Part shown: positions 11,360 to 52,067 of the stretch, piece by piece
How positions within the stretch are numbered: the first letter of the stretch is position 1
Layout: each line of letters starts with the position of its first letter
Assembly (NCBI GenBank): GCA_949358305.1
Contig: OX442314.1
Location: forward strand, 16,058,001 to 16,122,000
Direction of reading: 5' to 3'
DNA length: 64,000 nucleotides
DNA from: Strigamia acuminata
Lineage: Eukaryota
The notes under the pieces: model-generated
The model's input: only the letters and a program-made list of their open reading frames with translations
Databases searched by the model: none
Told to the model about the DNA's origin: nothing
Program-made: the position numbers and the translations under genes

Positions 11360-11905
11360 TTAAATCTTGTTGAAATCCACGTGAATCTCCGTTGAAATCC
11401 ACGTAAATCTCCGTTGAAATCTACTGAATCGCTGTTGAAATCCGTTGAAATTTCCGTTGAAATCCGTTTGAATTTCCGTTAAAATCCGTTTGAATTTCCG
11501 TTGAAATCCGTTTGAATTTCCGTTGAAATCCTCTTAAATTTCCGTTGAAATCCTCTTAAATTTCCGTTGAAATCCTCTTAAATTTCCGTTGAAATCCTCT
11601 TAAATTTCCGTTGAAATCCTCTTAAATTTCCGTTGAAATCCTCTTAAATTTCCGTTGAAATCCTCTTAAATTTCCGTTGAAATCCTGTTGAATTTCCGTT
11701 AAAATCCTGTTGAATCTCTGCTGAAATCCACTTGAATCTCCCTTTTAAATCCGGTTGAATCTCCCTTTGAAATCCAGTTAAATCTCCCTTTTAAATCGTG
11801 TTAAGATTCTCTTTGAATCCCGTTGAAATCCCGTCAAGATTTTCTTCAAATCCCGTTGAAATCCCATCAAGATTTTCTTCAAATCACGTTGAAATTCCGT
11901 TGAGA
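11360..11905. repeat. Minisatellite with a 22-bp unit built from 11-bp subunits, in the retroelement leader
   Basis: Perfect tandem copies of GTTGAAATCCTCTTAAATTTCC in the centre (unit starts at 11522, 11544, 11566 ...), with degenerate copies at both edges. Confidence 0.95.
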
Positions 11906-12117
11906 TTCTCCTTACATTAACTCGTTCTGTGTCGTTTTTGTCCTTGTTTCGTTGCAAATCCAGTCAAATTGTTCTTCCTTTCTCCCCTTTTCTTCTTGTG
12001 GTTTTCCTTCGCCACGCTGGCCATTAACGTGTTGCATCCCTCAGTCATGTGCCCTTGATAAACTTCAAATTTTATTTTTTTTCTGAGTTTTTTCTTAGTT
12101 CTGTGTCGACTGCACTA

Positions 12118-27416: not shown

Positions 27417-27651
27417 ATTTTTAGCCGACCGTGAAATTATTGATTACGTAGTTAAAACAAATTTAGTCATTCACTGAAAATTCCTTTCAAGTTTATTTTT
27501 GTATTTCATTTATTTGAATTTTAATGAGGCATTTTTAGCCGACCGTGAAATTATTGATTACGTACCGGTAGTTTAAAGCAAATTCAGTCATTCACTGAAA
27601 ATTCCTTTCAAGTTTATTTTTGTATTTTATTTATTTGGATTTTAATGAGGC
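27417..27651. repeat. Local tandem duplication of about 114 bp
   Basis: ATTTTTAGCCGACCGTGAAATTATTGATTACGTA...TTTTAATGAGGC at 27417-27530 and 27531-27651. Copy 2 carries an extra CCGGTA. Confidence 0.9.
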
Positions 27652-29374
27652 ATTCAGACGTTCTTAACGTGAATCTCTTAATTGTTGTTAAAACGAGGCT
27701 CTAACGCATAAAAATAAATTGTGTCATGCCTAAACAACATCGCGTGAATAATCTCAAGTCGAGATCTTATTACATAGATTGCAAGTCGTAACAATATTAC
27801 GTGAGTTCTCAGCATGCGGCGCCGAATCTCGTCTTATACACGTTTGCAAATCTACAATCTTCTTTCCTCGCTTTTTCCAATCCCAGCAGACGATCCAAGG
27901 TGTGTCAAATCCTGATTTTTATCTATGAAGACGCGTATGGAAAACTGGATGCTGCATATTTTATAAATTGAAAAGGAAAATCAGTCGGAAGTTGACTTGA
28001 ACCGATTTGAGCAATAAAAAAGAAATTTAAAAAAATCTCATTACAAATTCATTAGCCATTTGGGAATTTTTTTAATAAAAATGTTGATTTTGACATGTGT
28101 GGTAAAGGCATTTTACAAAAGTTAATTAGGGAATGCCTCAGCTGCAGAAGTCATTAAAACTGTCTGTGGGGATGACGCGAAAAAAAGAAAAACAAAACAT
28201 ACAAAGATTTTGACAATGAAATGAAAACGTGTCTTGTCTGTAGATTATCTTGAAAAATTTATGAAGTAATCAACTTTTGCCATGGATTCAATTGCAACAA
28301 ATGTCAGAAAACCATTTCAGAGTTTCCCCACAATAAATTACGAAAGTAATAATTTTTTTCACAAACATGAATGGAATTTTCAATATTTTATTCTCATACT
28401 GACAGACTTATTAATAATTTCTTTTATTTCAATTCAAATTGCAGGAAAAAGAAAAATAAAAAATAAAACACCATATTATTTTTATCATAAGCAGTTTTTC
28501 ACACAAAATCCTATTGCAAAATGCTAACTTCCACTTTATTGAAGCTTCGAAAAGACTACGAGGGGATTCCGCAAGACCTCATGTGCAGACTCTCAATAAG
28601 ACATCACAAATTGAACACGAAAGTGAGAATGTTATGAGAAATGATGAAATTTTATATTGACTTTACTTCATACGGTTTTATTAGAAGCTTGTAGACTGAA
28701 AACAAAGAAGGTGAAGGGGCTATAATTTAACTTAAACTAGGATTTCAACTTTTTGAGCCTACTCATATGTGCATTGCTACTCATTTGATATAAATGTAGA
28801 TAAACGAGTCCTGGGCGGTTATACTGATCATTGGAATTGGTATTGATTTTTACAAAGCCTAGATAAAATGGTTTCTAAACTGCACCTTTGGTCCAGCTGG
28901 GATTTTATGTGAAATTCTAAGTAAATTGAAGTCTCGAGGGTGCACGATGTTCACACAAACTTTATTTCACTTTAACTTTTAAATTTGTTTCATGCAACGT
29001 GTTGATGTTGTGCATTAAGGAAAATTTAATTAGTTTGCGATGTATTTTCCAATTGTGTCGAAAAAAATCTTCTTTAGGAACAATTTTCCGTTCAGTGGCC
29101 GTGTTTACTCGAGGGCTGTGTAATTTCCTGAATAGGCCTCAAACCAGCCACAGAATTACGACAGATGGTTTGATCAGACAAGATACAATGCGTTAACTTC
29201 GTGATTGCTTTTGCAATCACGAGGGAATTGTTTTGTTACAATAGAAGTCGATTAATTGGCACTACAGTATTTAGTCACTGGTTTTCAAACAGGATATACC
29301 GAAACCAACATCGAGCGGAATGGGAAATGAAAAGAGCAAGGAATAAATATATTGCGTGCAATATAGTTATTTTA

Positions 29375-38528: not shown

Positions 38529-41465
38529 GTAAGAGATTTTTTCATTTTCTATCGAGTTTTTGGTGTGTTTTGTTTGCATTTTTGTGGTAATTTGTTGTGG
38601 AATTTTTTGAAATTTTAAAGAAATTTTTTTTTTTTTTTTGGTTGGAAATTGGATTTAATTTGAATTTTTTTGGGGGGGAAAAATTGTTGTTGCGATTGGT
38701 AAAATAGATGGGTTGGGATAGGTTTGTGGTCACCAAAATGGTTGTGTTTGGGTTATAAATAAGGGGAGGTGGTTCATGGATTCGAAGGAGGTCCATGACC
38801 GCCATATTGGATCTGGGTGGCAGCTTGGATGTTATTTTTCTTGTTTCGCTACCTCCCCTAATGGTGGGGGAATTAGTCCCAAGATTCAATTTCAAACCGT
38901 TACATAGATGTTTTTTTTTGCTTTTTAATAAAAAGAAAATTGTAATTTCAGTTTGGATTTCGGACAGTCGTGGAAGAAATATTTAACGGATGTAGTTATG
39001 TGAGGAATTCGTGAAATTTGACGTGTCCTTTATTTCATTTGTTCCCTAAATAGAATAATTGGAAATGGGGCATTCTTGTTATTGTCTTGCTCCATGTCTA
39101 CCACTACTTCTTGGCCTTGACATCCAAGTGCAGCAGGAAAGCGCTTTTTTAACGGACCAAGGGTAGCGTGGGCAAGGATAATGAAGTTGGTTCGTGTGTG
39201 TACAAAATGAATCAAATTCGGGAAATTTTATCTTGGGTGTACTAAGAATTTTGTTTGATATATTTTTTTTTCTTTTAAAACTAAATATTTTTTCAGTTAT
39301 CTTTTGGTGAACAAAAGGTGACACGAACTTGATGTCATGTCGAGTGATACATGGAACCAAGATTTGAGTTAAAAGTGGGGGTAACAGTGTAGGGGTCACG
39401 TGGACAATAGATAGTAATGTCCATTTACAACGAGGATTGCACAATGACGAAGTTATTTGTTCATTGCAGTCGTATCTTCGTTTTGGAATCAGCAGATGCA
39501 TTCGAAATAGTTTGGAATTTCTCACGATAAATAAATGAGCTTATCTTCGATTCCAAACCGCAAAAAAATAGCTTTGTGCACACCTGGTGACCTGGCGAAC
39601 CATTTTGCAGTGTGAAAATGGCTTTTTAATGTTTTATTCAGTTTTTTTTTTTTTGAAAAATGTTTTAAAAATTGAATTTGCACTTGTTATTGGATGGACG
39701 ATGGAGTTTAAGTGTCCCGCACTCGGGTGTTTATATAAAGATGGAATTTTTCAATTGATCACCTATTGATAGAGAACACATGTTCTGGTAGTTCAGTGTT
39801 AAGAAGGTTGGCGACTGCGCTGGATCGATAGGTTGAGAAATTGATTTTGTCTGCAGCCGCAGCCAGGTGCCAACGCCCTCTGTCTGACAAATAAAACATT
39901 TTGCTTATTTCTGGAAATGCGGGGTGATGATTCAAGCAGTTATTTGATTTGATTAGTATTGGATTTTGGTGTTAAGGGCGATAAGATTTTAGTTATGGAA
40001 CAATGGGAGTCGATAATGGTTTTGACTCGGGTCTTGCGGTGAAAAGTGGTATTGTTATGTGGCACCATCTGGTCCCGCTTTGGCCTCCTAAGGGTTGCAA
40101 GAAATAACATTTTGTTTCCTTTTCTTGTGCCAGTCTCACTTGAAAGTGCGAAATGTTTAGAGTAAATGGCACCAGGAATGGAGAAGGGAATTGCTTTTCG
40201 CTCTGCGCTGGGAAATGAAGGAGATAAATTAAAAAGGATGAGTTTTGAAGATGAATAATTAATTTCAATTTTGTAAAATATTGTGAATTTTTTTTTTTTT
40301 TTTATTTTTTTAGAAATTAAAATTTGTATTTTAACGGAAGATGAACAGTTTGATGGTTTCCATGGCAACATGTTGCTTGCTTGGTAGTGAAAGGGTTATT
40401 GGTTTTGGAAACGTGCCATGTGGATTGGTTCGTTGACCCAGTCGCCTATCAGCCGCGTAGTGGTGAAACCTTGAAATGCCTCTGAATGAAAATGGGCGCT
40501 TATTGATCGGCCGAGTTTTAAAGCTGATTGATGCAAAGATGAGATGTGAAATGTATTTTTTTTTATGATTGACATTGCACGGGAAATAGTTTCGCATAAA
40601 TTTGCATGTTTAAATTATTTTTTATTTTTTTTAGTTTTTTTTTTTAAATTTACTGTTTTATTTAAATTTTTTATTGTGAAAAAACGGTAGGATCAATTTG
40701 CATTATCTTAGCTTACAAGGTGATCACGTGTCAGGGAAGCCATTGTTAGACCTTGTTGTAGATAACAGTCTAGTATAACACACCTACTGTTATAGGATAC
40801 TCTTCGACTGTTGCGTCGTAATTCTATTGGTAAGCAACAGACATTAATGCATAACTGGGAATTTCAGATATCTAGAGCTTTATTTGACGGGTTTAATGCT
40901 ACCATTCTTTTTTATGTAATTATTATTTTAATACGATGTGTTCGTAACCGGTAAATATTGATCGATACTTGGTAAGTGGATTGATTAAATGTCAATCATC
41001 GAAAATTGTATTTTTTTCAAATTTTCTTTTAAAAAAAAAATTGTGAAATTTAGCCGTAATTTTAATTAATTACGCTTTGCGTGGGGAGGAGAAAAATGAC
41101 ATTTATCTGATAAAATTGAACCTTGCTGTATACAGATGACACAGGAAGAGAGGCGTGTCTGCGTCTTATCTCTTTGTCCTCAAATTCCATTGACTGGGAT
41201 GGGTGGATTAAATTAAATATTTTTTTAAATTAGAATTTATGGGTCTGGTATGAAAGGGTTTCTTTATGAAGAGATTTGATGGATTTATGGGGTTTGTTTT
41301 GTGGGTAATTGGATTATTTTTTGCTTTTAAATCACTGCTGATCAAGTTTATTGATGTATTTTTTTGTATTTTTGTATTTTTGTCTTTTTTTAGATAGTTG
41401 ATCTGGTGAAGTGGACCAATTTGTCGCTGTTTGAGTGCAAATACTGTAGAACTCTTGATTAAGCA

Positions 41466-44400
41466 ATGGGTGGACGACCTAGCAAAAGATCAGTGGACAT
41501 CACCACGCCGCCCAAGGAAGGGATCAATGATGAAGTGAAAATTAATAGCAAGGAAGAGAATGGAATTGCTGCTGCCGACGGAACTGCCGTTGTTGAAAAT
41601 AATTGCGTCGCTCAACCACAAGTAATAGAAGACAAAGGTGACTGCGAAGAGGTGACGACGACGAACGAAAAGGTGGAAACTACTACTGTGGATACCGAAG
41701 CCGAGAAGGGCGACACCACGAAGGACGAGAAGACCGAGAAAACTGAAAACAACGAAAAAAAGAAAGAGAAGGCCGAGAAACCCAAGAAAGAGAAAAAAAG
41801 CAGCAGTTTTCGGTTTTTCAGAAGGGCGACGAAAAAATCGTCCATTGATCAAGGAGCTAATGGAGATGTTGACAATAAAACCATTCCAGAAGATGAGAAA
41901 ACTGAGGTTTGTATACAAATGCGGTAAAAATTATAAGTTGTCTCGGGAATTTATGATTTTTATCCTGAATTAATCGTGACATTCTAGTCCCTAAATGCGT
42001 GTTTTCTGTCATTGAGCCAAAATTTTGATTCTCTTACGAGGATTTAAACTTGACGCTAAATCTAGTAACAGCCATTCGTTCCATGTGCTTGACAGAGGCA
42101 AAGTTCCAAGGTTTTGCCTCCAGAGGTGAAATGCATAACATTTGCGAAGAATGTTTTCATTAATCAGAAGGAAGGACTGTGAAGTTAATTGCTTCCTTTC
42201 CTTTGTCAGTTGCATCATGGATCGCGATGTTTTTCGGAGCACCATTAGCCGACACTATTAGCCACTGACGGTTTATAATCGTAGAACGAGATAATGTGCT
42301 CAGCTAATCTCATAAATGTTAACATAATGTAAACAGACACGCTTCAGCAATTAGAAATATACTTTGTGGCTAATACGAGTACTTGAAGAAACTCGTCACG
42401 CGTGGTGCTCTAGATTCATATATATGTATGCAAACTCGATGTGAAATAGCTCGGGTTGGTATCCATCTGCTCCCGTGTTTTTCTCCCCTTTCCTCTGGGC
42501 ATTACTCTGGTTTTGACGTGCAAGCTGCCTTCATTTCTCGTGTTGACAGCATGATTGAAGTAGGAAGAGGTTCTTGTTGACTTAACAGTCTAGGCCTGCT
42601 GTTAGCTATACGTTTATACATTTTTTTTTTTTTTTTTTTTGCTGAGACTGGAGTATCTAAAGTTTCAGTTTTATCGTAACGAATTTCCAAGGTTTGGTTG
42701 ATGGATGCAAGGACAGGCGACCCGAGCCATCTTGATGGGCACGGTAATCTAAAATGGGAAAATTGGGGTAAAAGATAAGGAGGTCTTTTATATCTTATCT
42801 TTTGTATCGGACGTCTGTCGGAAATTAGGGGAAGATGTCTAATTGTAGACAATGGGCCCAAAATGGCTTCCGCTGAGTGTCATTCATCCACAATGCACAT
42901 GTGATTAATATTGATTATAGTAATGCTTTGTCAGACGATTCCCGAGTGATTCTCATGGATGAACTTAACTATAACGTGATGTAATTACGTGGAACCATTC
43001 GGGTTTGAAAATAATTTTAGCCTTTTATGTCATGTGGTGACTATGCAACTTGAGTCACTAATCTCGGTGTTGATAAGCGCGGTGCTGAGTCAAAAAATGT
43101 TATGTTTAACTTAATACGTATTTCACAAGATGTGGATAAAGTTTGTTGGCAATTTGTCATTATCGCGAGTGAAGTGCGGCAGGAATTTGGGTCTTTTGGA
43201 CGCGAATGATATCAACATCCTTCGTTGCAGCTTGCAATGGCCTAGAATTATTTTTGAGTAAAAACTATTTCCTGTTCTCTTGCCAAACCACGAAAAACAC
43301 AACACACACACCCTGTTGCCTATTTTAAGCGGTCGAAAGGGGGGTGGAAATGGTCTGTTTAGATAGCTTTGCTTTTGCAACCATCATTTGACTTGATGCA
43401 AGTTCCAGGGCCTGGTGGTAGTGTTAAGCCTAAACTCCAAAGCAAATAGCTTGTGGCTCATTAAGTTGCTTGCCGCTTGTGCCACGACTCTGGACACAGT
43501 GGTTGAGAATTGGTTAAAGAATTTGCAAGCGCTCCGAATTTGAGTATTTAAAGGGGTGGATGCGAGCAGGAGCCATTGAGTTTGATAATGGATCCAATTG
43601 AGGTAAGTTAAACCGGAGTTCGGTGCTAATTTAAATTAAGTCGATTGTGCTGATGCGTGCTTGGATTTTAAGTCTAATTTTCATTTCGAGCCAATTAAAA
43701 CTTGAGTTGAAAGTTTGTAATTGGTTTTTTTTTGTATTTGACTATATGCGATTTCAAGTTGAAATGCGGCAATGGTAAGTTCTGGTAAACGTGTTTCAAT
43801 ATATTTTTCGCGAAAATTCACGATTTTGAATTTTTTCGAAAAATCTTGTTGAATTTGTGTTTTTTAGTGTCGTTGCCACACATGGAGATCATAAAAAGAA
43901 GGGGAAGGGGTTTTTCAACCCCTTTATTTTTATTTTTGCATTTTTTTAAGACTCCATGTGGGGCTTTTGACTTGCCCTTATAAGGTCTTGGTTTCTGTTA
44001 ACCAATTGGAAATGGAGTTGGGGGCTTCTTGTCTGTCACTTGAGCTAATGAAGAGACATTTGTTGTCGAGACCCATTCACACTGCTCTGGAAGCGCACAG
44101 CTGGTTTAAGTGCATCTGGTTCGGTTTGGAAATTTGTCACAAGCGCATGATGGGAAATTCGGTTGACAATAGGGGTGTCTTTATGCCCTTGTTCTCCCAT
44201 CATTTCCCCCTCCGTTTTGTGTACTAATACGCAGAGAATCCATTCAATGGCGATTAATTTCTTAGTTCTGCAGGAAACATGAATGATTTTTGCTATTTTT
44301 AGACGTTGGAATTTTTTGATGACACTTGTGGGGGTATGACGTATTAATGTCAGGTTTAGTAGGTCGTTACTGACTGGGAGCAACCATCTTGAAGTCATTT

Positions 44401-47050
44401 ATCATAATTTGAAGAGGTGATGGCTGATAGTGATGGTTCAGGTGTTTTTGTTGTTCGCAATAACAGGATTTGCTGTCTGCGAGTGTAGGGACCAGCTGCT
44501 GATAATGAGTTTAGGCTTGAGATCTTTCACGGGTTGAGTTAGTTTGTAATTTAAAAAGTAAAAGAAAAAAAAAACTTTTACATTAGTTTTTATTTGTTTG
44601 TAGTTTAAGTTTTATGTAAAGTTTGAATCGGCCCATTCAGTTTCTTTGTATGTGAAATTTAATGTCGTAAATGAAAGAAAGAAAAACAGGAAGACATTAA
44701 TCATGAGTGAAATGTTTTATTTACGTGTGAGTCATTGCGGTGAATAAAATGTTAATTTGTATGAATCTTATTTTTAATTTCAGTCAAAAACGGAGACTAG
44801 TCAAGCTGCTGAAGGTGCACAAGAAGCGAAGCCTGAGGAAGCCAAAAAGGAGGAAACTGCAGCTGTTGGATCGGAAGAGAAAGGTGCAGGGGATGCTCCA
44901 GCCGCCCCTTTAGCCACAGGTACTAAAAGTTGCACTTTTACTGCGCATTTTTGTTTCGGTTTCAGTGATATGCGAGATAACTACAGCTGTTGTTGGTAGT
45001 AAATTGATTCTTGATCTCGTGATTTGGTTTGTGCTATTTTTAGATGCACAGATGCTCGTGTTGCAAACGAGATGTTTTGAAAAGTTTTTTGTTGTTGTGT
45101 TGTTACTTTGTTCTATTTTTAAACTTTGATTTTAATTTTTTGTTTTTGTAAATTTAGTAGAGAAAATTGAAGTTAAGGTTGAAGAAACTGTATCCGAGGC
45201 TAAGGTACCAGAGCCAGTAGCTGAAGCGAAAGAAGAGGAAGTAAAACCGCAAGAAATTGCACCACCGAAAGAAGAGAAAGTAGAATCAGCACCAGTGGAA
45301 GTCGAAGAAGTTAAATCAAAGGTATAATCGCATCGTAGCAATTTATTAAGCAGTTAATGACTCTTGTTTAATTTGTAGGTTGAAGAAACGCCAAAAGTTG
45401 AAGCTGTTCAGGAACCAGTAGTTGAAGCTCCTCAAACTCCATCCCCTCTACCTCCACCCACAGTAGAAAGTCCGCCACCTCCTCCCGAGGAGCCTGAAAA
45501 ATTGCCAGTCACTTTGGCTGAACCAGTTGTGGTCGTTCAAGCTGCCACTCCCGAACAAGCTCCACCCAGCCCTGATCTATCTAATAAGAGTCCGAGTCCT
45601 TTACCTGAAACGGTTTCTCCAGCTTCCGAAAGTCCTGTATCCGAGTCTCCCATTCCACCTCCCGAAGACCCCACATCTATTAGTCCTCCTCCACCACCTC
45701 TGGCTGAATCTCCCGAAGTTCCAGAAGCAGAAGTTTTGCCAGAACCGCCCGTGGAACCAACCGAATCGTCTCCCGTTCCTCAAAGCGACGACATTCTGCC
45801 ACCACCTATGGAAATTCAGCAGGTAGCGACAGCGCAAGAGGTTGAACCCGTTTCTCAATAATTTCGTATAAATTGTGTTTATTTGTAAAAATGAAAGGAA
45901 AAGAAACGTCGTAAAGATAAATTTGGTGTTAAGAAATTTTTTTTTTTTTGTGATTAATGTTTGAAGTTTTGCATGAATTAAGTTCAGTTTATTTTTTGTT
46001 TATTTTTTTCTTTTTCGTTTTTGGGAAAGTACAAGTTTTGTGAAAAGTGAAATTAAATTTACGATGGTAGTTTAAAATAATTTTTTTTTTTTTTATACCT
46101 GTACGAATTATTTTTTACTAATTACGAAATTTGTTATTCGTTTTTTTATTACTAATTAGAATTAACGTGTGTGTAATTTAATTCATTCCGGACCATAAGG
46201 GGAAAGATGGAATTTAATATTTTTGAGAGAATAAATAATTTAAAAAAGAAAGTCAAAATTTTCATTTAATTTATATTTTTTCTTATTTGTACGAAAATTA
46301 ATAAAATGTTTCATTTAAAACATTTTTTTTTGTTTTTGTTTTATTTTATAGTTTTATTATTTATTTTTAAATGGGGGGGATGAGGGTTCCTAAAAGTGAG
46401 GCATAAAGGCGAATATTCGTGTATTTAAACGGGTTTTATTTCGGCTCTGAGCAATACGTACAGTATACATACGTATTACATTTTGGTTATTGGCTGGAAT
46501 ATTTTTTTAGGTGGAAAATATCGCGAACAAAACTGCATCAAGTGTCGCTACAACTATACAGTGGGAACACGGAGGTAACGAAGTTGCAATGACTGGTTCT
46601 TTTTTCGATTGGACCGATTCCATGCCAATGATTGAAAGGTTTGTTACGAAATATTGTTTCCGGTTTCATCTGACGGCTTATTTTATCTGTATTTAACAGT
46701 GAGGGTGTTTTCACCATTGACGTCGATCTACCCGAAGGTGAACATTATTGTAAGTTTTTTGTGGATGGAAATTGGACTGTCAACAGTTCTAAAGTAGGTT
46801 TACAATGAACTAAAATTCATACAGTACTGTCCTTTCAACAAGAAAATTGTTTTGTGAGCAAAAAAAAAAATTCTAGGTAGAATTTGTGAATAAATAAATA
46901 AATAAATGTTTTGTTGCAAGGACAGATTTAATGCTGAAATTAGTTATATAATTAATCGTTGATATTTATTTTTTTTAGCCGGTAATGGAACTTGATGGCC
47001 AGGGTCAAGTGAACATGATAATGGTTAGGGTAGGGGGTAGTGAAGAGTGA
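41466..47050 (+). CDS. Myristoylated Akap200/MARCKS-like acidic, Pro-rich protein with a C-terminal AMPK-beta-type carbohydrate-binding module (CBM48), ~492 aa
   Basis: Phase-compatible GT-AG exons 41466-41906, 44784-44919, 45158-45321, 45379-45822, 46511-46638, 46700-46793, 46979-47050 (1479 nt). N-terminus MGGRPSKRSVDITT (MGxxxS myristoylation motif). Basic/Phe cluster KPKKEKKSSSFRFFRRATKK. C-terminus TIQWEHGGNEVAMTGSFFDW...DLPEGEHYCKFFVDGNW...PVMELDGQGQVNMIMV matches the AMPK-beta glycogen-binding domain. Confidence 0.85.
43545..43602 (+). promoter_or_regulatory. Candidate internal promoter and alternative first coding exon (MDPIE)
   Basis: TATTTAAA at 43545-43552 and Inr-like CCATTG 30 nt downstream. 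ATG in good context at 43588. Perfect donor AG|GTAAGT at 43603, phase 0, matching exon 44784. Confidence 0.55.
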
Positions 47051-49536: not shown

Positions 49537-49942
49537 GACCAAAATGGCTTTGTGAAGTCTTTAATATATAAAATGATAAAGCGCTTGTTTGTAAATAAAT
49601 TTAATATTTCGACATTGTTTATTGGTTTACATTTACACCAAAAGAATGAATGAAAATGTCAGTTTGTTGTTGGTTATCGCAATCCCATTTGCTCCTTTCA
49701 GTCTTTTCATTCTTTTTTAAAATTTGTCAATAGATGGCAATATGCAACTGTTAAATCAGCAAGCTCATTGGTTGGTCGTGCGTGTAAACAATTTCGGCCA
49801 TTTGTAATTTTAACAAACGAAACAAACCTTTCTGACTTTTCCATACCATACGGTAAGACGAAATATATTTTCCGAATGAAGTGGCATATTAATTACATTT
49901 TCTCATGGTTATTTACACTTTTTTAATACTGTCCAACAGATC

Positions 49943-50919
49943 ATGAACTTTGAAACAAGCGACACTGGGCCTGGTTTCGTGGGGATCAAATTTTGTCAGG
50001 AATGGTACGTGAGATCAAATAGATGTTTATTATTTTTGTGTTTTGTTAGTTCTAAACATATTTTTATGTTTATTTTCAGTAACAACATGTTGTATCCGAA
50101 AGAAGACAAAGAGAACCGGGTTTTATTATATGCCGTAAGAAACATTGAAAAAAATTTTGCTTTCCTCTTACTAATACGTCTTTAATTCATTTTGTTTAGT
50201 GTCGTAACTGCGATTACCAACAGGTAGCCGATAATAATTGCATCTATGTGAACAAAATCACCCACGAAGTTGAGTAAGTAGAAATATCTAAATATCACAA
50301 TACGTAAACATATAAAAAAAAAAATAATAATAATTTAAAAATGTATAAATATTCTGGGAATTTTTTATGTTTATTGTCGAAATGGGTTTTTTCCGTAGTG
50401 AATTGACTCAAATAGTAAGTGAAGTGATCTCAGATCCAACTCTCCCTCGAACAGAGGATCATTCGTGCCCACGATGCAGTCACACAGAAGCTGTTTTCTT
50501 TCAATCTTCTTCTCGTCGCTCAGAAGTTGGTCGCAATTCCACTTGATATCCCCTTTAATAATTTAAAACATTTAATTTTTTTGTGCGTGTTATTAATCTT
50601 TTGTTCATGTTTTATCAAACTAAAACTTAATTGTGCATGTCGCTTGCAGTGAGCTAACTCAAATAATCGGAGATGTCATTTCTGATCCAACCCTACCCCG
50701 TACTGATGACCATCCATGTCCCAAATGTGACATAAAAGAAGCTGTTTTTTTCCAAACACATTCCAGTAGAGCCGAGGTAAAATTAGCACTAACGACACAT
50801 AATAGTTGTAGTATTTTAATACAAGACATAAAGTAATCATTTTCTTTTAATTACAGGATGAAATGCGACTGTATTATGTCTGCACCAACCCAAAATGCAT
50901 GCATCGATGGACTGAATAA
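49943..50919 (+). CDS. POLR2I: DNA-directed RNA polymerase II subunit RPB9 (126 aa per isoform)
   Basis: Exons 49943-50004, 50080-50134, 50200-50273, [50399-50525 or 50650-50776], 50857-50919. Protein has [34 protein letters not shown]...[25 protein letters not shown]...EAVFFQ...[20 protein letters not shown], with two zinc ribbons. A likely non-coding exon ends at 49852 (donor GTAAGA). Confidence 0.97.
50399..50525 (+). CDS. POLR2I: RPB9 alternative exon 4a (127 nt)
   Basis: TAG acceptor and GTTGGT donor. Encodes [42 protein letters not shown] with no stops. Confidence 0.85.
50650..50776 (+). CDS. POLR2I: RPB9 alternative exon 4b (127 nt)
   Basis: CAG acceptor and GTAAAA donor. Encodes [42 protein letters not shown] with no stops. 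Confidence 0.9.
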
Positions 50920-50987
50920 ACGATTTTTCTACTTTTAATTTGAATTAGAAAATATCTAGTTATCTGTATTATTAATAAATCACTAAG

Positions 50988-52067
50988 TTATAAAAACTGG
51001 TCAAATTCCTCAGTAAAAACGTCGTCGTCGAGTACGGTAGTTTCCCAATCTACACGCTGCATTAACGTCGCCAAATCGTCGTCGTGAACATCGGACAATC
51101 CACGAATTGATTTTCGTCGTGTATCTGTGATAGAGGAATTTGATTTTGCCTCGTTGAAAGGAATTAATGTTGCTTTACCTGCAGCTTGTAAATTGGAATT
51201 TGAAGCTGAGCGATGTGATCCTGCTCTGTGCGTTGTTGTTGCTGAGGTTGACGTTTTGCTATAAGATGAAATCCTTCGAGTTTTTGAAACCGATGTTCGC
51301 GAGGATGTTCTGCGATAGGATCCGATTCTTTGCATTTTTGAATTTGATGTTTTGCGAGACGTTCCAGTTGGTTTGGTTATTGGTGGAACGTTCTTTAAAA
51401 CGATGCTTTTTATTAGTAAAGTTTGATGAGCGTCAAATGTCTTAAACGAACTTCTAGATTGCTTTTTCTAAGCCCGAGAATGCTGTTTCCAAGGGCCGCG
51501 TTGGTGGATAGACGATAGAACATGTTTGGCAACGGATTTTGAGGAATTCCTGACGCTTTTCTGTCACTGCGTTGTTGTCTTGCGCGACGGTTTTGAAACC
51601 AAACCTACGGTAAATTGTTATTATAGTAAATTAATGCGTACACAAATATGTTAAATTAAATACTATAATTTTGCGCTCTGTTATTTTCATTATTTTTGAA
51701 AGAGTTCTGAACTGCTGTCGACTCGGGTATCTATTAATCGAGAACTCTTTTTCCAATCTGATTACGTGATGTTTGGAGTATCGTTGACGCTCATCTTGTG
51801 CGTCTAGTGTAATAAAATTAAAGTAAATTAGGGTTAATATCTCTGGGTTTAAATTGCATCTAAGTTTTACAGCTGCAATCACGCAGGAAATTAAAGGATT
51901 GGTGCGTCGGAGGAGTCTTTTCTCTTAAGTTAATATGGTTTAAAAATCAATAACACTTCAAAAACATGTGGTGCTTTTCTAAATAATTTAGTTTCCAAAT
52001 TGATGCGACTTAACTTACCATTATTACTATTGCAGGCGCTCCAGCTTGGTCTGTTTTCCTTCTCCAT
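50988..52067 (-). CDS. Divergent Q50 homeobox transcription factor (PRD-class-like), ~230-250 aa
   Basis: Exons (minus strand) ~52067-52019 (start uncertain), 51803-51664, 51604-51452, 51392-50988, with a possible extra in-frame intron 51178-51125. Homeodomain RQRYSKHHVIRLEKEFSINRYPSRQQFRTLSKIMKITERKII|VWFQNRRARQQR has L16, F20, YP25-26 and WFQNRR. Acidic C-terminus DDDVFTEEFDQFL. Confidence 0.8.

What the first reader, a model, noticed from the sequence alone, without database searches (positions are those of the whole stretch)
50399..50776. RNA polymerase II subunit RPB9 has a duplicated, apparently mutually exclusive exon pair
Seen: two tandem exons of identical length (127 nt) and identical phases (2 to 0), each with canonical splice sites. 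Both encode the DPTLPR linker and the first CxxC of the C-terminal zinc ribbon. They share 29/42 residues, and 19 of those 29 use different codons, with no indels or stops. Joining 4a to 4b creates an immediate TGA, and skipping both shifts the frame, so only one-of-two inclusion gives a full protein. Established: RPB9 is normally a single conserved subunit affecting start-site selection, fidelity, TFIIS-assisted cleavage and transcription-coupled repair. Inference: the duplication is old and both copies are under purifying selection. The organism could build two Pol II variants from one gene, differing at [10 protein letters not shown] vs [10 protein letters not shown] and CPRCSHTE vs CPKCDIKE. 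I do not know of this being described, but I cannot check the literature.
Basis: partly seen in the sequence, partly recalled or inferred. Interest (0 to 1): 0.88.

Follow-up and report, generated by a model that had tools for sequence, protein, structure and literature searches.

The report
Two alternative exons in arthropod RPB9
This animal's gene for RPB9, a core subunit of RNA polymerase II, carries two intact, long-diverged copies of one exon, and spliced contigs join each copy separately to the last exon, so it likely makes a major and a minor version of the subunit.

Summary
Observation confirmed: exons 4a (50399-50525) and 4b (50650-50776) are 127 nt, same phase, 29/42 residues identical; either alone gives a 126-aa RPB9, both give a stop, neither a frameshift. 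A transcriptome-like run holds E3>4b>E5 (depth 101) and 4a>E5 skipping 4b (depth 7.9, GT..AG); E3>4a was not seen, and that 4a contig keeps part of intron 3. Both copies keep 15/15 invariant RPB9 residues; with equal time since duplication, neutral evolution of 4a is rejected (LRT 36), without that constraint it is not. A relative with saturated silent sites shares 4b's derived residues, so the duplication looks older than that split. No relative's genome with the pair was reachable. Best reading (0.7): mutually exclusive exons, 4b major, 4a minor, varying the C-ribbon knuckle and hairpin loop. Ten literature searches found no description. Precedents: Arabidopsis NRPB9a/9b paralogues; copepod RefSeq isoforms with two RPB9 C-termini. 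This scan noted other alternative RPB9 ends in fungi and a duplicated RPB5 exon on other DNA, but not this exon pair. New variant of a known kind; interest 0.62.

The parts
49777..49852 (+). Non-coding 5' UTR exon (start not defined; at least from 49777)
   Evidence: Spliced contigs skip 87 nt GT..AG to 49940
49940..50004 (+). Coding exon 1, ATG at 49943
50080..50134 (+). Coding exon 2
   Evidence: joints; frame
50200..50273 (+). Coding exon 3 (end of N-ribbon, linker); donor GTAAGT
50274..50398 (+). Intron 3 (125 nt); its 3' part (from 50342) is kept in the 4a contig; retention would give an in-frame stop right after exon 3
   Evidence: sequence
50399..50525 (+). Exon 4a, minor copy; weak donor GAA|GTTGGT; spliced to exon 5 in run X3
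50526..50649 (+). Intron between the copies (124 nt, GT-AG, no internal AG)
50650..50776 (+). Exon 4b, major copy; both junctions seen; 40/42 aa identical to relative L003
50857..50919 (+). Last coding exon with second CxxC-type pair of the C-ribbon and stop
50974..50979 (+). Candidate poly(A) signal AATAAA
   Evidence: sequence only

Best explanation
RPB9 exon 4 is duplicated in tandem in this arthropod-like animal, both copies are intact and each is spliced separately to the last exon, so the gene likely makes two 126-residue subunits by mutually exclusive splicing, with 4b as the main form and 4a as a minor, probably tissue- or stage-restricted one. Shown: anatomy, frames, junctions E3>4b, 4b>E5 and 4a>E5, constraint on 4b, retention of all invariant residues in 4a. 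Inferred: E3>4a splicing, translation of isoform A, assembly of both into Pol II. Exclusion most likely rests on 4a's weak donor making 4b the default, with double inclusion removed as a premature stop (nonsense-mediated decay; inferred); no U12/U2 or RNA-pairing switch was found. The isoforms would share the N-ribbon, the DPTLPR segment and all zinc ligands, and differ at 13 positions in a linker helix, the zinc knuckle and the hairpin loop of the C-ribbon, so they would be expected to tune contacts of the C-ribbon (elongation, TFIIS response, termination factors) rather than Pol II assembly.
For: Frames. Junctions: X3 contig E0-E1-E2-E3-4b-E5 at depth 101.4 and contig 4a>E5 (50525>50857, GT..AG) at depth 7.89, absent from the two DNA-like runs; no 4a>4b or E3>E5 joint listed. 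Selection: 4a vs 4b pS 0.90, pN 0.19; 4b vs L003 pS 0.79, pN 0.036; with equal neutral time on both copies omega(4a)=1 is rejected in 3 of 3 models, LRT 35.7-37.5; 15 of 15 columns at least 95% conserved in 224 distinct homologous segments are kept by both copies and all 13 differences fall in the 27 variable columns, p 8e-4; profile scores of 4a and 4b are alike (15th and 17th percentile). Age: 4b and L003 group at 100/98 and a 4a+4b clade is marginally rejected (p-AU 0.042); 4a keeps V6 (24 of 25 ecdysozoan rows), S7, E19, H28, R39 (22 of 25) where 4b and L003 share other residues. The one exonic difference listed for 4a in X3 (50486) is synonymous. Location of differences: model of L003, helix 67-76, strands 96-100 and 112-116 with the loop between (mean pLDDT 73, loop about 61).
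Against: The E3>4a junction is in none of 3 runs, and the only 4a contig runs back into intron 3, so it could be a splicing intermediate or a retained-intron RNA. The 4a>E5 joint rests on one contig of one run, with 30 nt on its short side, and the run's type is not on record. Without the clock constraint omega(4a)=1 is not rejected (p 0.31 and 0.07). 4a has three residues seen in 0 of 25 ecdysozoan rows (T29, S37, S41). No relative's locus with both exons was found (0 of 77 loci, none a close genomic relative). The spliced copy in the DNA-like runs carries 4b only.
Confidence: 0.7

Rival explanations
1. 4a was a working alternative exon for a long time but is now a relic: still intact and leakily spliced, no longer needed.
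For: Weak donor; low depth; 5' junction unseen; three residues absent from 25 ecdysozoan rows; branch test without clock is not significant. Past constraint and present constraint cannot be told apart with one genome.
Against: No stop, indel or lost zinc ligand; 15 of 15 invariant columns kept; profile score as good as 4b's; 4b is as unusual as 4a against the same rows; the difference seen in another sample is synonymous.
Confidence: 0.15
2. 4a is used mainly in a regulatory, non-productive route: 4a>E5 splicing goes with retention of intron 3, which stops translation after the N-ribbon and part of the linker, lowering full-length RPB9 or giving a short N-terminal form.
For: The only 4a contig includes 57 nt of intron 3; retention puts a stop one codon after exon 3. 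In yeast, residues 1-52 suffice for one Rpb9 function (PMC9638876, passages).
Against: 4a would be untranslated, which does not explain amino-acid constraint with saturated silent sites. A contig is a graph path, not a molecule, and assemblers drop rare junctions.
Confidence: 0.12
3. Assembly artefact or a recent neutral duplication.
For: None found.
Against: Unbroken 436-nt contigs in two runs; saturated silent sites; neutral drift of 0.5 substitutions per site kept an open frame with 29 or more identities in 2 of 3000 simulations.
Confidence: 0.03

Closest known systems
Tandem duplicated, mutually exclusive exons (e.g. U2AF1 exons 3/Ab, FGFR2 IIIb/IIIc, insect Dscam and Mhc clusters)
   Same: Two adjacent homologous exons of one length and phase; length not a multiple of three, so double inclusion gives a premature stop, one of the exclusion routes listed in PMC6071210 (passages).
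   Different: Here the gene is a core Pol II subunit; no docking/selector pairing above shuffles and no U12 site was found; one junction is still unseen.
Arabidopsis NRP(B/D/E)9a and 9b
   Same: Two RPB9 variants that assemble into Pol II and are not fully redundant (PMC4417161 and PMC10533338, passages).
   Different: Separate genes, 92% identical, tied to plant Pol IV/V; here one gene, 113/126 identical, all differences in one exon.
Copepod RPB9 isoforms X1/X2 (Lepeophtheirus XP_040575520 vs XP_071747094; Tigriopus XP_059080745 vs XP_059080754)
   Same: One annotated gene, two 126-aa proteins that differ in the C-ribbon hairpin loop; the X2 type is alike in both species.
   Different: The swapped part starts after the FFQ motif and runs to the C-terminus (alternative last exon, inferred from the proteins; their DNA was not seen), so it is an independent event. 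Database annotation only; no paper found.
Canonical RPB9/POLR2I (PF02150 + PF01096)
   Same: Constitutive exons 70/73 identical to Ixodes RPB9; all zinc ligands present.
   Different: Exon 4 is single in all 77 loci fetched.

Membership tests
RPB9/POLR2I | N-terminal RPB9 zinc ribbon plus C-terminal TFIIS-type ribbon, closest to RPB9 rather than RPC10 or RPA12 | tested here: met
   Named hits to both exons are RPB9; PF01096 on 4a (E 2.5e-4) and 4b (E 1.8e-3, half domain each), both Pfam domains on relative L003; 70/73 identity to tick RPB9 outside exon 4.
Tandem duplicated mutually exclusive exons | Adjacent homologous exons with equal length, phase and canonical splice sites | tested here: met
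Tandem duplicated mutually exclusive exons | Each exon is included on its own in mature mRNA | tested here: inconclusive
   4b: both junctions seen. 4a: downstream junction seen in 1 of 3 runs, upstream junction in 0 of 3.
Tandem duplicated mutually exclusive exons | Double inclusion and double skipping are absent or non-productive | tested here: inconclusive
   Both are non-productive by frame; neither joint is listed, but contigs cannot show absence.
Tandem duplicated mutually exclusive exons | Both copies under coding constraint | tested here: met
   4b directly against L003; 4a under an equal-time clock and by column conservation; not significant without the clock.
Tandem duplicated mutually exclusive exons | Exon pair conserved in related genomes | not testable with these tools
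   No genome of a close relative held; L003 is intron-free; 0 of 77 loci carry a pair.
U12/U2 hybrid exclusion | Minor-spliceosome donor or branch site on one copy | tested here: not met
   Donors GTAAGT, GTTGGT, GTAAAA; no U12-type donor or branch motif (consensus recalled) by inspection.
Docking/selector RNA-structure exclusion | Competing intronic pairings | tested here: inconclusive
   0 of 11 region pairs clearly beat shuffles (best 5 of 60 as strong); covariation could not be tested.
Steric exclusion | Branch point too close to the upstream donor | tested here: inconclusive
   Intron is 124 nt with no internal AG (4.4 expected) and has branch-like pentamers 17-101 nt from the donor, but intron 3 is almost as free of AG.
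Two Pol II subtypes | Both proteins assemble into Pol II and differ in function | not testable with these tools
   Needs proteomics and assays.

The most novel reading that the evidence does not exclude
An arthropod lineage builds two Pol II subtypes from one RPB9 gene by a regulated exon switch, and this is one of several independent cases (copepod last exons, plant paralogues, and by unchecked scan notes fungal retained introns) in which the RPB9 C-ribbon is swapped while the N-ribbon is kept, marking it as an overlooked regulatory module of Pol II.
Probability: 0.35. Interest if true: 0.85.

Novelty: new variant of a known kind. Interest (0 to 1): 0.62.

Why it matters
Animal Pol II is usually treated as one invariant 12-subunit enzyme. 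RPB9 affects start-site choice, fidelity, the response to TFIIS (PMC9108883, passages) and, through its C-terminal domain, piRNA termination in C. elegans (PMC7917558, passages). A natural pair that differs only in the linker helix, zinc knuckle and hairpin loop is a ready-made experiment on what the C-ribbon does, and the copepod parallel suggests the same loop has been diversified more than once.

Tried and rejected
No genome is held for the window, so the spliced DNA copy could not be located. No RNA holder was listed on record; X3 is called transcriptome-like from its contigs alone (61,566 contigs, 19 Mb, longest 8 kb, exons joined). A second lay at 80% likeness gave no new joint. Branch codon models without a clock were not significant. 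RNA duplex scan: nothing above shuffles. AG-free intron 4 as sign of a distant branch point: not special, intron 3 is similar. Proteins with two DPTLP motifs: 1 of 339, a plant gene model that looks like fused tandem genes. Tick, snail and fish 'isoform' entries that were read differ by other ends or come from other loci, not by an exon 4 swap. The search of 50%-identity representatives was never run, so distant exon-4a-like fragments are less fully surveyed. The exact L003 protein is not in the protein collection. The 42-column tree resolves only 3 of 24 inner branches. The host group could not be fixed: closest named constitutive parts are ticks (70/73), horseshoe crab (69/73) and sea spider (67/73); no myriapod RPB9 was among the named proteins compared. 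A first trial had two exon ends off by one; one search corrected them.

Full report
Observation. The gene has a 5' UTR exon and coding exons at 49943-50004, 50080-50134, 50200-50273, 4a 50399-50525, 4b 50650-50776 and 50857-50919. 4a and 4b are 127 nt, in the same phases, 82/127 nt and 29/42 aa identical, 19 of the 29 with different codons. Either gives a 126-aa protein; both give a stop at residue 106; neither gives a frameshifted 90-aa product. The flanking introns no longer resemble each other.

Host. Outside exon 4 the protein is 70/73 identical to Ixodes and Ornithodoros RPB9, 69/73 to Limulus, 67/73 to Pycnogonum and 54-64/73 to most of the pancrustacean and other ecdysozoan rows. I read it as an arthropod; the group was not determined.

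Sequencing runs. Three runs hold the stretch, none with its type on record. X1 and X2 behave as DNA: a 436-nt contig with no difference runs from exon 3 through 4a into 4b, which rules out misassembly. X3 behaves as a transcriptome. It has two contigs here: UTR exon-E1-E2-E3-4b-E5 at depth 101.4, and a 241-nt contig 50342-50525 joined to 50857 at GT..AG, depth 7.89. So the 4a donor is used and skips 4b. The joint is not in X1 or X2. No E3>4a, 4a>4b or E3>E5 joint is listed in either lay. The 4a contig includes 57 nt of intron 3; it may be an intermediate, a retained-intron RNA, or a graph path left after a rare junction was pruned. Contigs show presence only, and depth is a poor measure of level, so 'minor' is a hint.

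A processed copy. X1 and X2 also hold the spliced 4b form at about the depth of the flanks (X2: joints 96-99.6, introns 96-99, flanks 88-101, shared exons 167-193; X1: joints 340-355, flanks 338-368). I infer a recent intron-less copy of isoform B elsewhere in the genome; its flanks were not seen. It fits 4b being the main form, and it means that the E3>4b joints in X3 could partly come from that copy.

Selection and age. 4a against 4b: pS 0.90, pN 0.19. One of 77 loci, L003, is an intron-free relative whose exon 4 matches 4b at 40/42 residues with pS 0.79 and pN 0.036, the same as in the constitutive exons, so 4b is under strong constraint. For 4a, free branch models cannot reject omega = 1 because silent sites are saturated (p 0.31, 0.07). 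The two copies are neighbours of equal age; with equal neutral time imposed, omega(4a) = 1 is rejected in 3 of 3 models (LRT 35.7-37.5). Both copies keep 15 of 15 near-invariant columns among 224 distinct homologous segments, and all 13 differences lie in the 27 variable columns (p 8e-4). Against 25 hand-picked ecdysozoan RPB9s, 4a keeps the common residue at positions 6, 7, 19, 28 and 39, where 4b and L003 depart, while 4b keeps it at 8, 22, 25 and 41; 4b+L003 is supported at 100/98 and a 4a+4b clade is marginally rejected (p-AU 0.042; 42 columns). The duplication therefore probably predates the split from L003's species, and the major exon is as derived as the minor one. This shows long-term constraint on 4a, not constraint today.

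Relatives. No duplicated exon 4 in 0 of 77 loci, many of them spliced, short or from annelids, corals and insects, none a close genomic relative. Among cluster members, two copepods each have two annotated 126-aa RPB9 isoforms identical up to the FFQ motif and different after it, with the second type alike in both species and in one unnamed protein: an independent way of swapping the same loop.

Mechanism. Of the exclusion routes listed in PMC6071210 (passages): no U12 signals (consensus recalled); no pairing above shuffles in 11 region pairs; steric exclusion is open, since the 124-nt intron has no internal AG but intron 3 is similar; decay of double-inclusion transcripts fits the frame. The 4a donor matches the U1 consensus (recalled) at 5 of 9 positions against 6 of 9 for 4b and exon 3. 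I favour default use of 4b, regulated use of 4a, and decay of errors; this is inference. In a model of L003 (mean pLDDT 73) exon 4 covers a helix (67-76), the zinc knuckle, strand 96-100 and the loop before strand 112-116; the 13 differences fall in the helix (3), around the knuckle (6) and in the loop (4). The tip of the homologous ribbon carries the cleavage residues in TFIIS and A12.2, whereas the Rpb9 C-ribbon binds elsewhere on the surface (PMC3384336, passages), so no cleavage activity is claimed.

Literature. Ten full-text searches combined RPB9, POLR2I or RpII15 with mutually exclusive, exon duplication, duplicated exon, isoform, arthropod and alternatively spliced; no listed title or abstract start describes this exon pair or the copepod isoforms. 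The library lacks most subscription papers, and I opened no supplements, where exon catalogues might list it. Read as passages only: PMC7917558, PMC9108883, PMC10533338, PMC4417161, PMC6071210, PMC9638876, PMC3384336. The rest were seen as listings. Arabidopsis has two RPB9 genes that are not redundant. The scan's notes list a duplicated RPB5 exon in an arthropod and retained-intron RPB9 ends in fungi (not tested here), and nothing for this locus or its look-alikes.

Verdict. A real, old, constrained exon pair in a core Pol II subunit, with one junction of the minor form seen and one missing. Mutually exclusive splicing to two proteins: 0.7. The mechanism class is common; its use in RPB9 appears undescribed. 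New variant of a known kind, interest 0.62.

Noticed in passing
window 49850-50890 (runs X1, X2): The DNA-like runs hold a fully spliced 4b form at about single-copy depth, suggesting a recent processed copy (retrocopy) of RPB9 isoform B elsewhere in the genome.
   Followed up: partly
P0229/P0232 and P0230/P0235: Copepods Lepeophtheirus and Tigriopus each have two annotated 126-aa RPB9 isoforms with different, conserved C-terminal 26 residues; no paper found. Worth its own look.
   Followed up: partly
window 50988-51467, minus strand: A 159-aa Ser/Arg/Thr-rich open frame ends about 70 nt from the RPB9 stop, so the two 3' UTRs probably overlap; no Pfam match.
   Followed up: no
window 49966-50279 (run X1): A second organism's RPB9, under 90% alike, at about one tenth of the depth, with introns at similar places.
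   Followed up: no
window 11369-11910: Tandem array of 22-nt units (about 20 copies) followed by a 33-nt variant.
   Followed up: no
window 27417-27654: Two tandem copies of a 121-nt unit, 91% alike.
   Followed up: no
window 41463-41927 and 45379-45861, plus strand: Acidic, low-complexity open frames; the first begins with a Met-Gly, myristoylation-like start recalling insect Akap200 (recalled, untested); no Pfam match above cut-off.
   Followed up: no
window 46587-47050, plus strand: Short exons read by eye as a carbohydrate-binding (AMPK-beta-like) domain; recalled likeness, untested.
   Followed up: no
L003:1-700: The contig carrying the relative's RPB9 transcript is fused to an unrelated reverse-strand sequence that looks like a ribosomal protein mRNA (by eye), probably an assembly chimera.
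   Followed up: no
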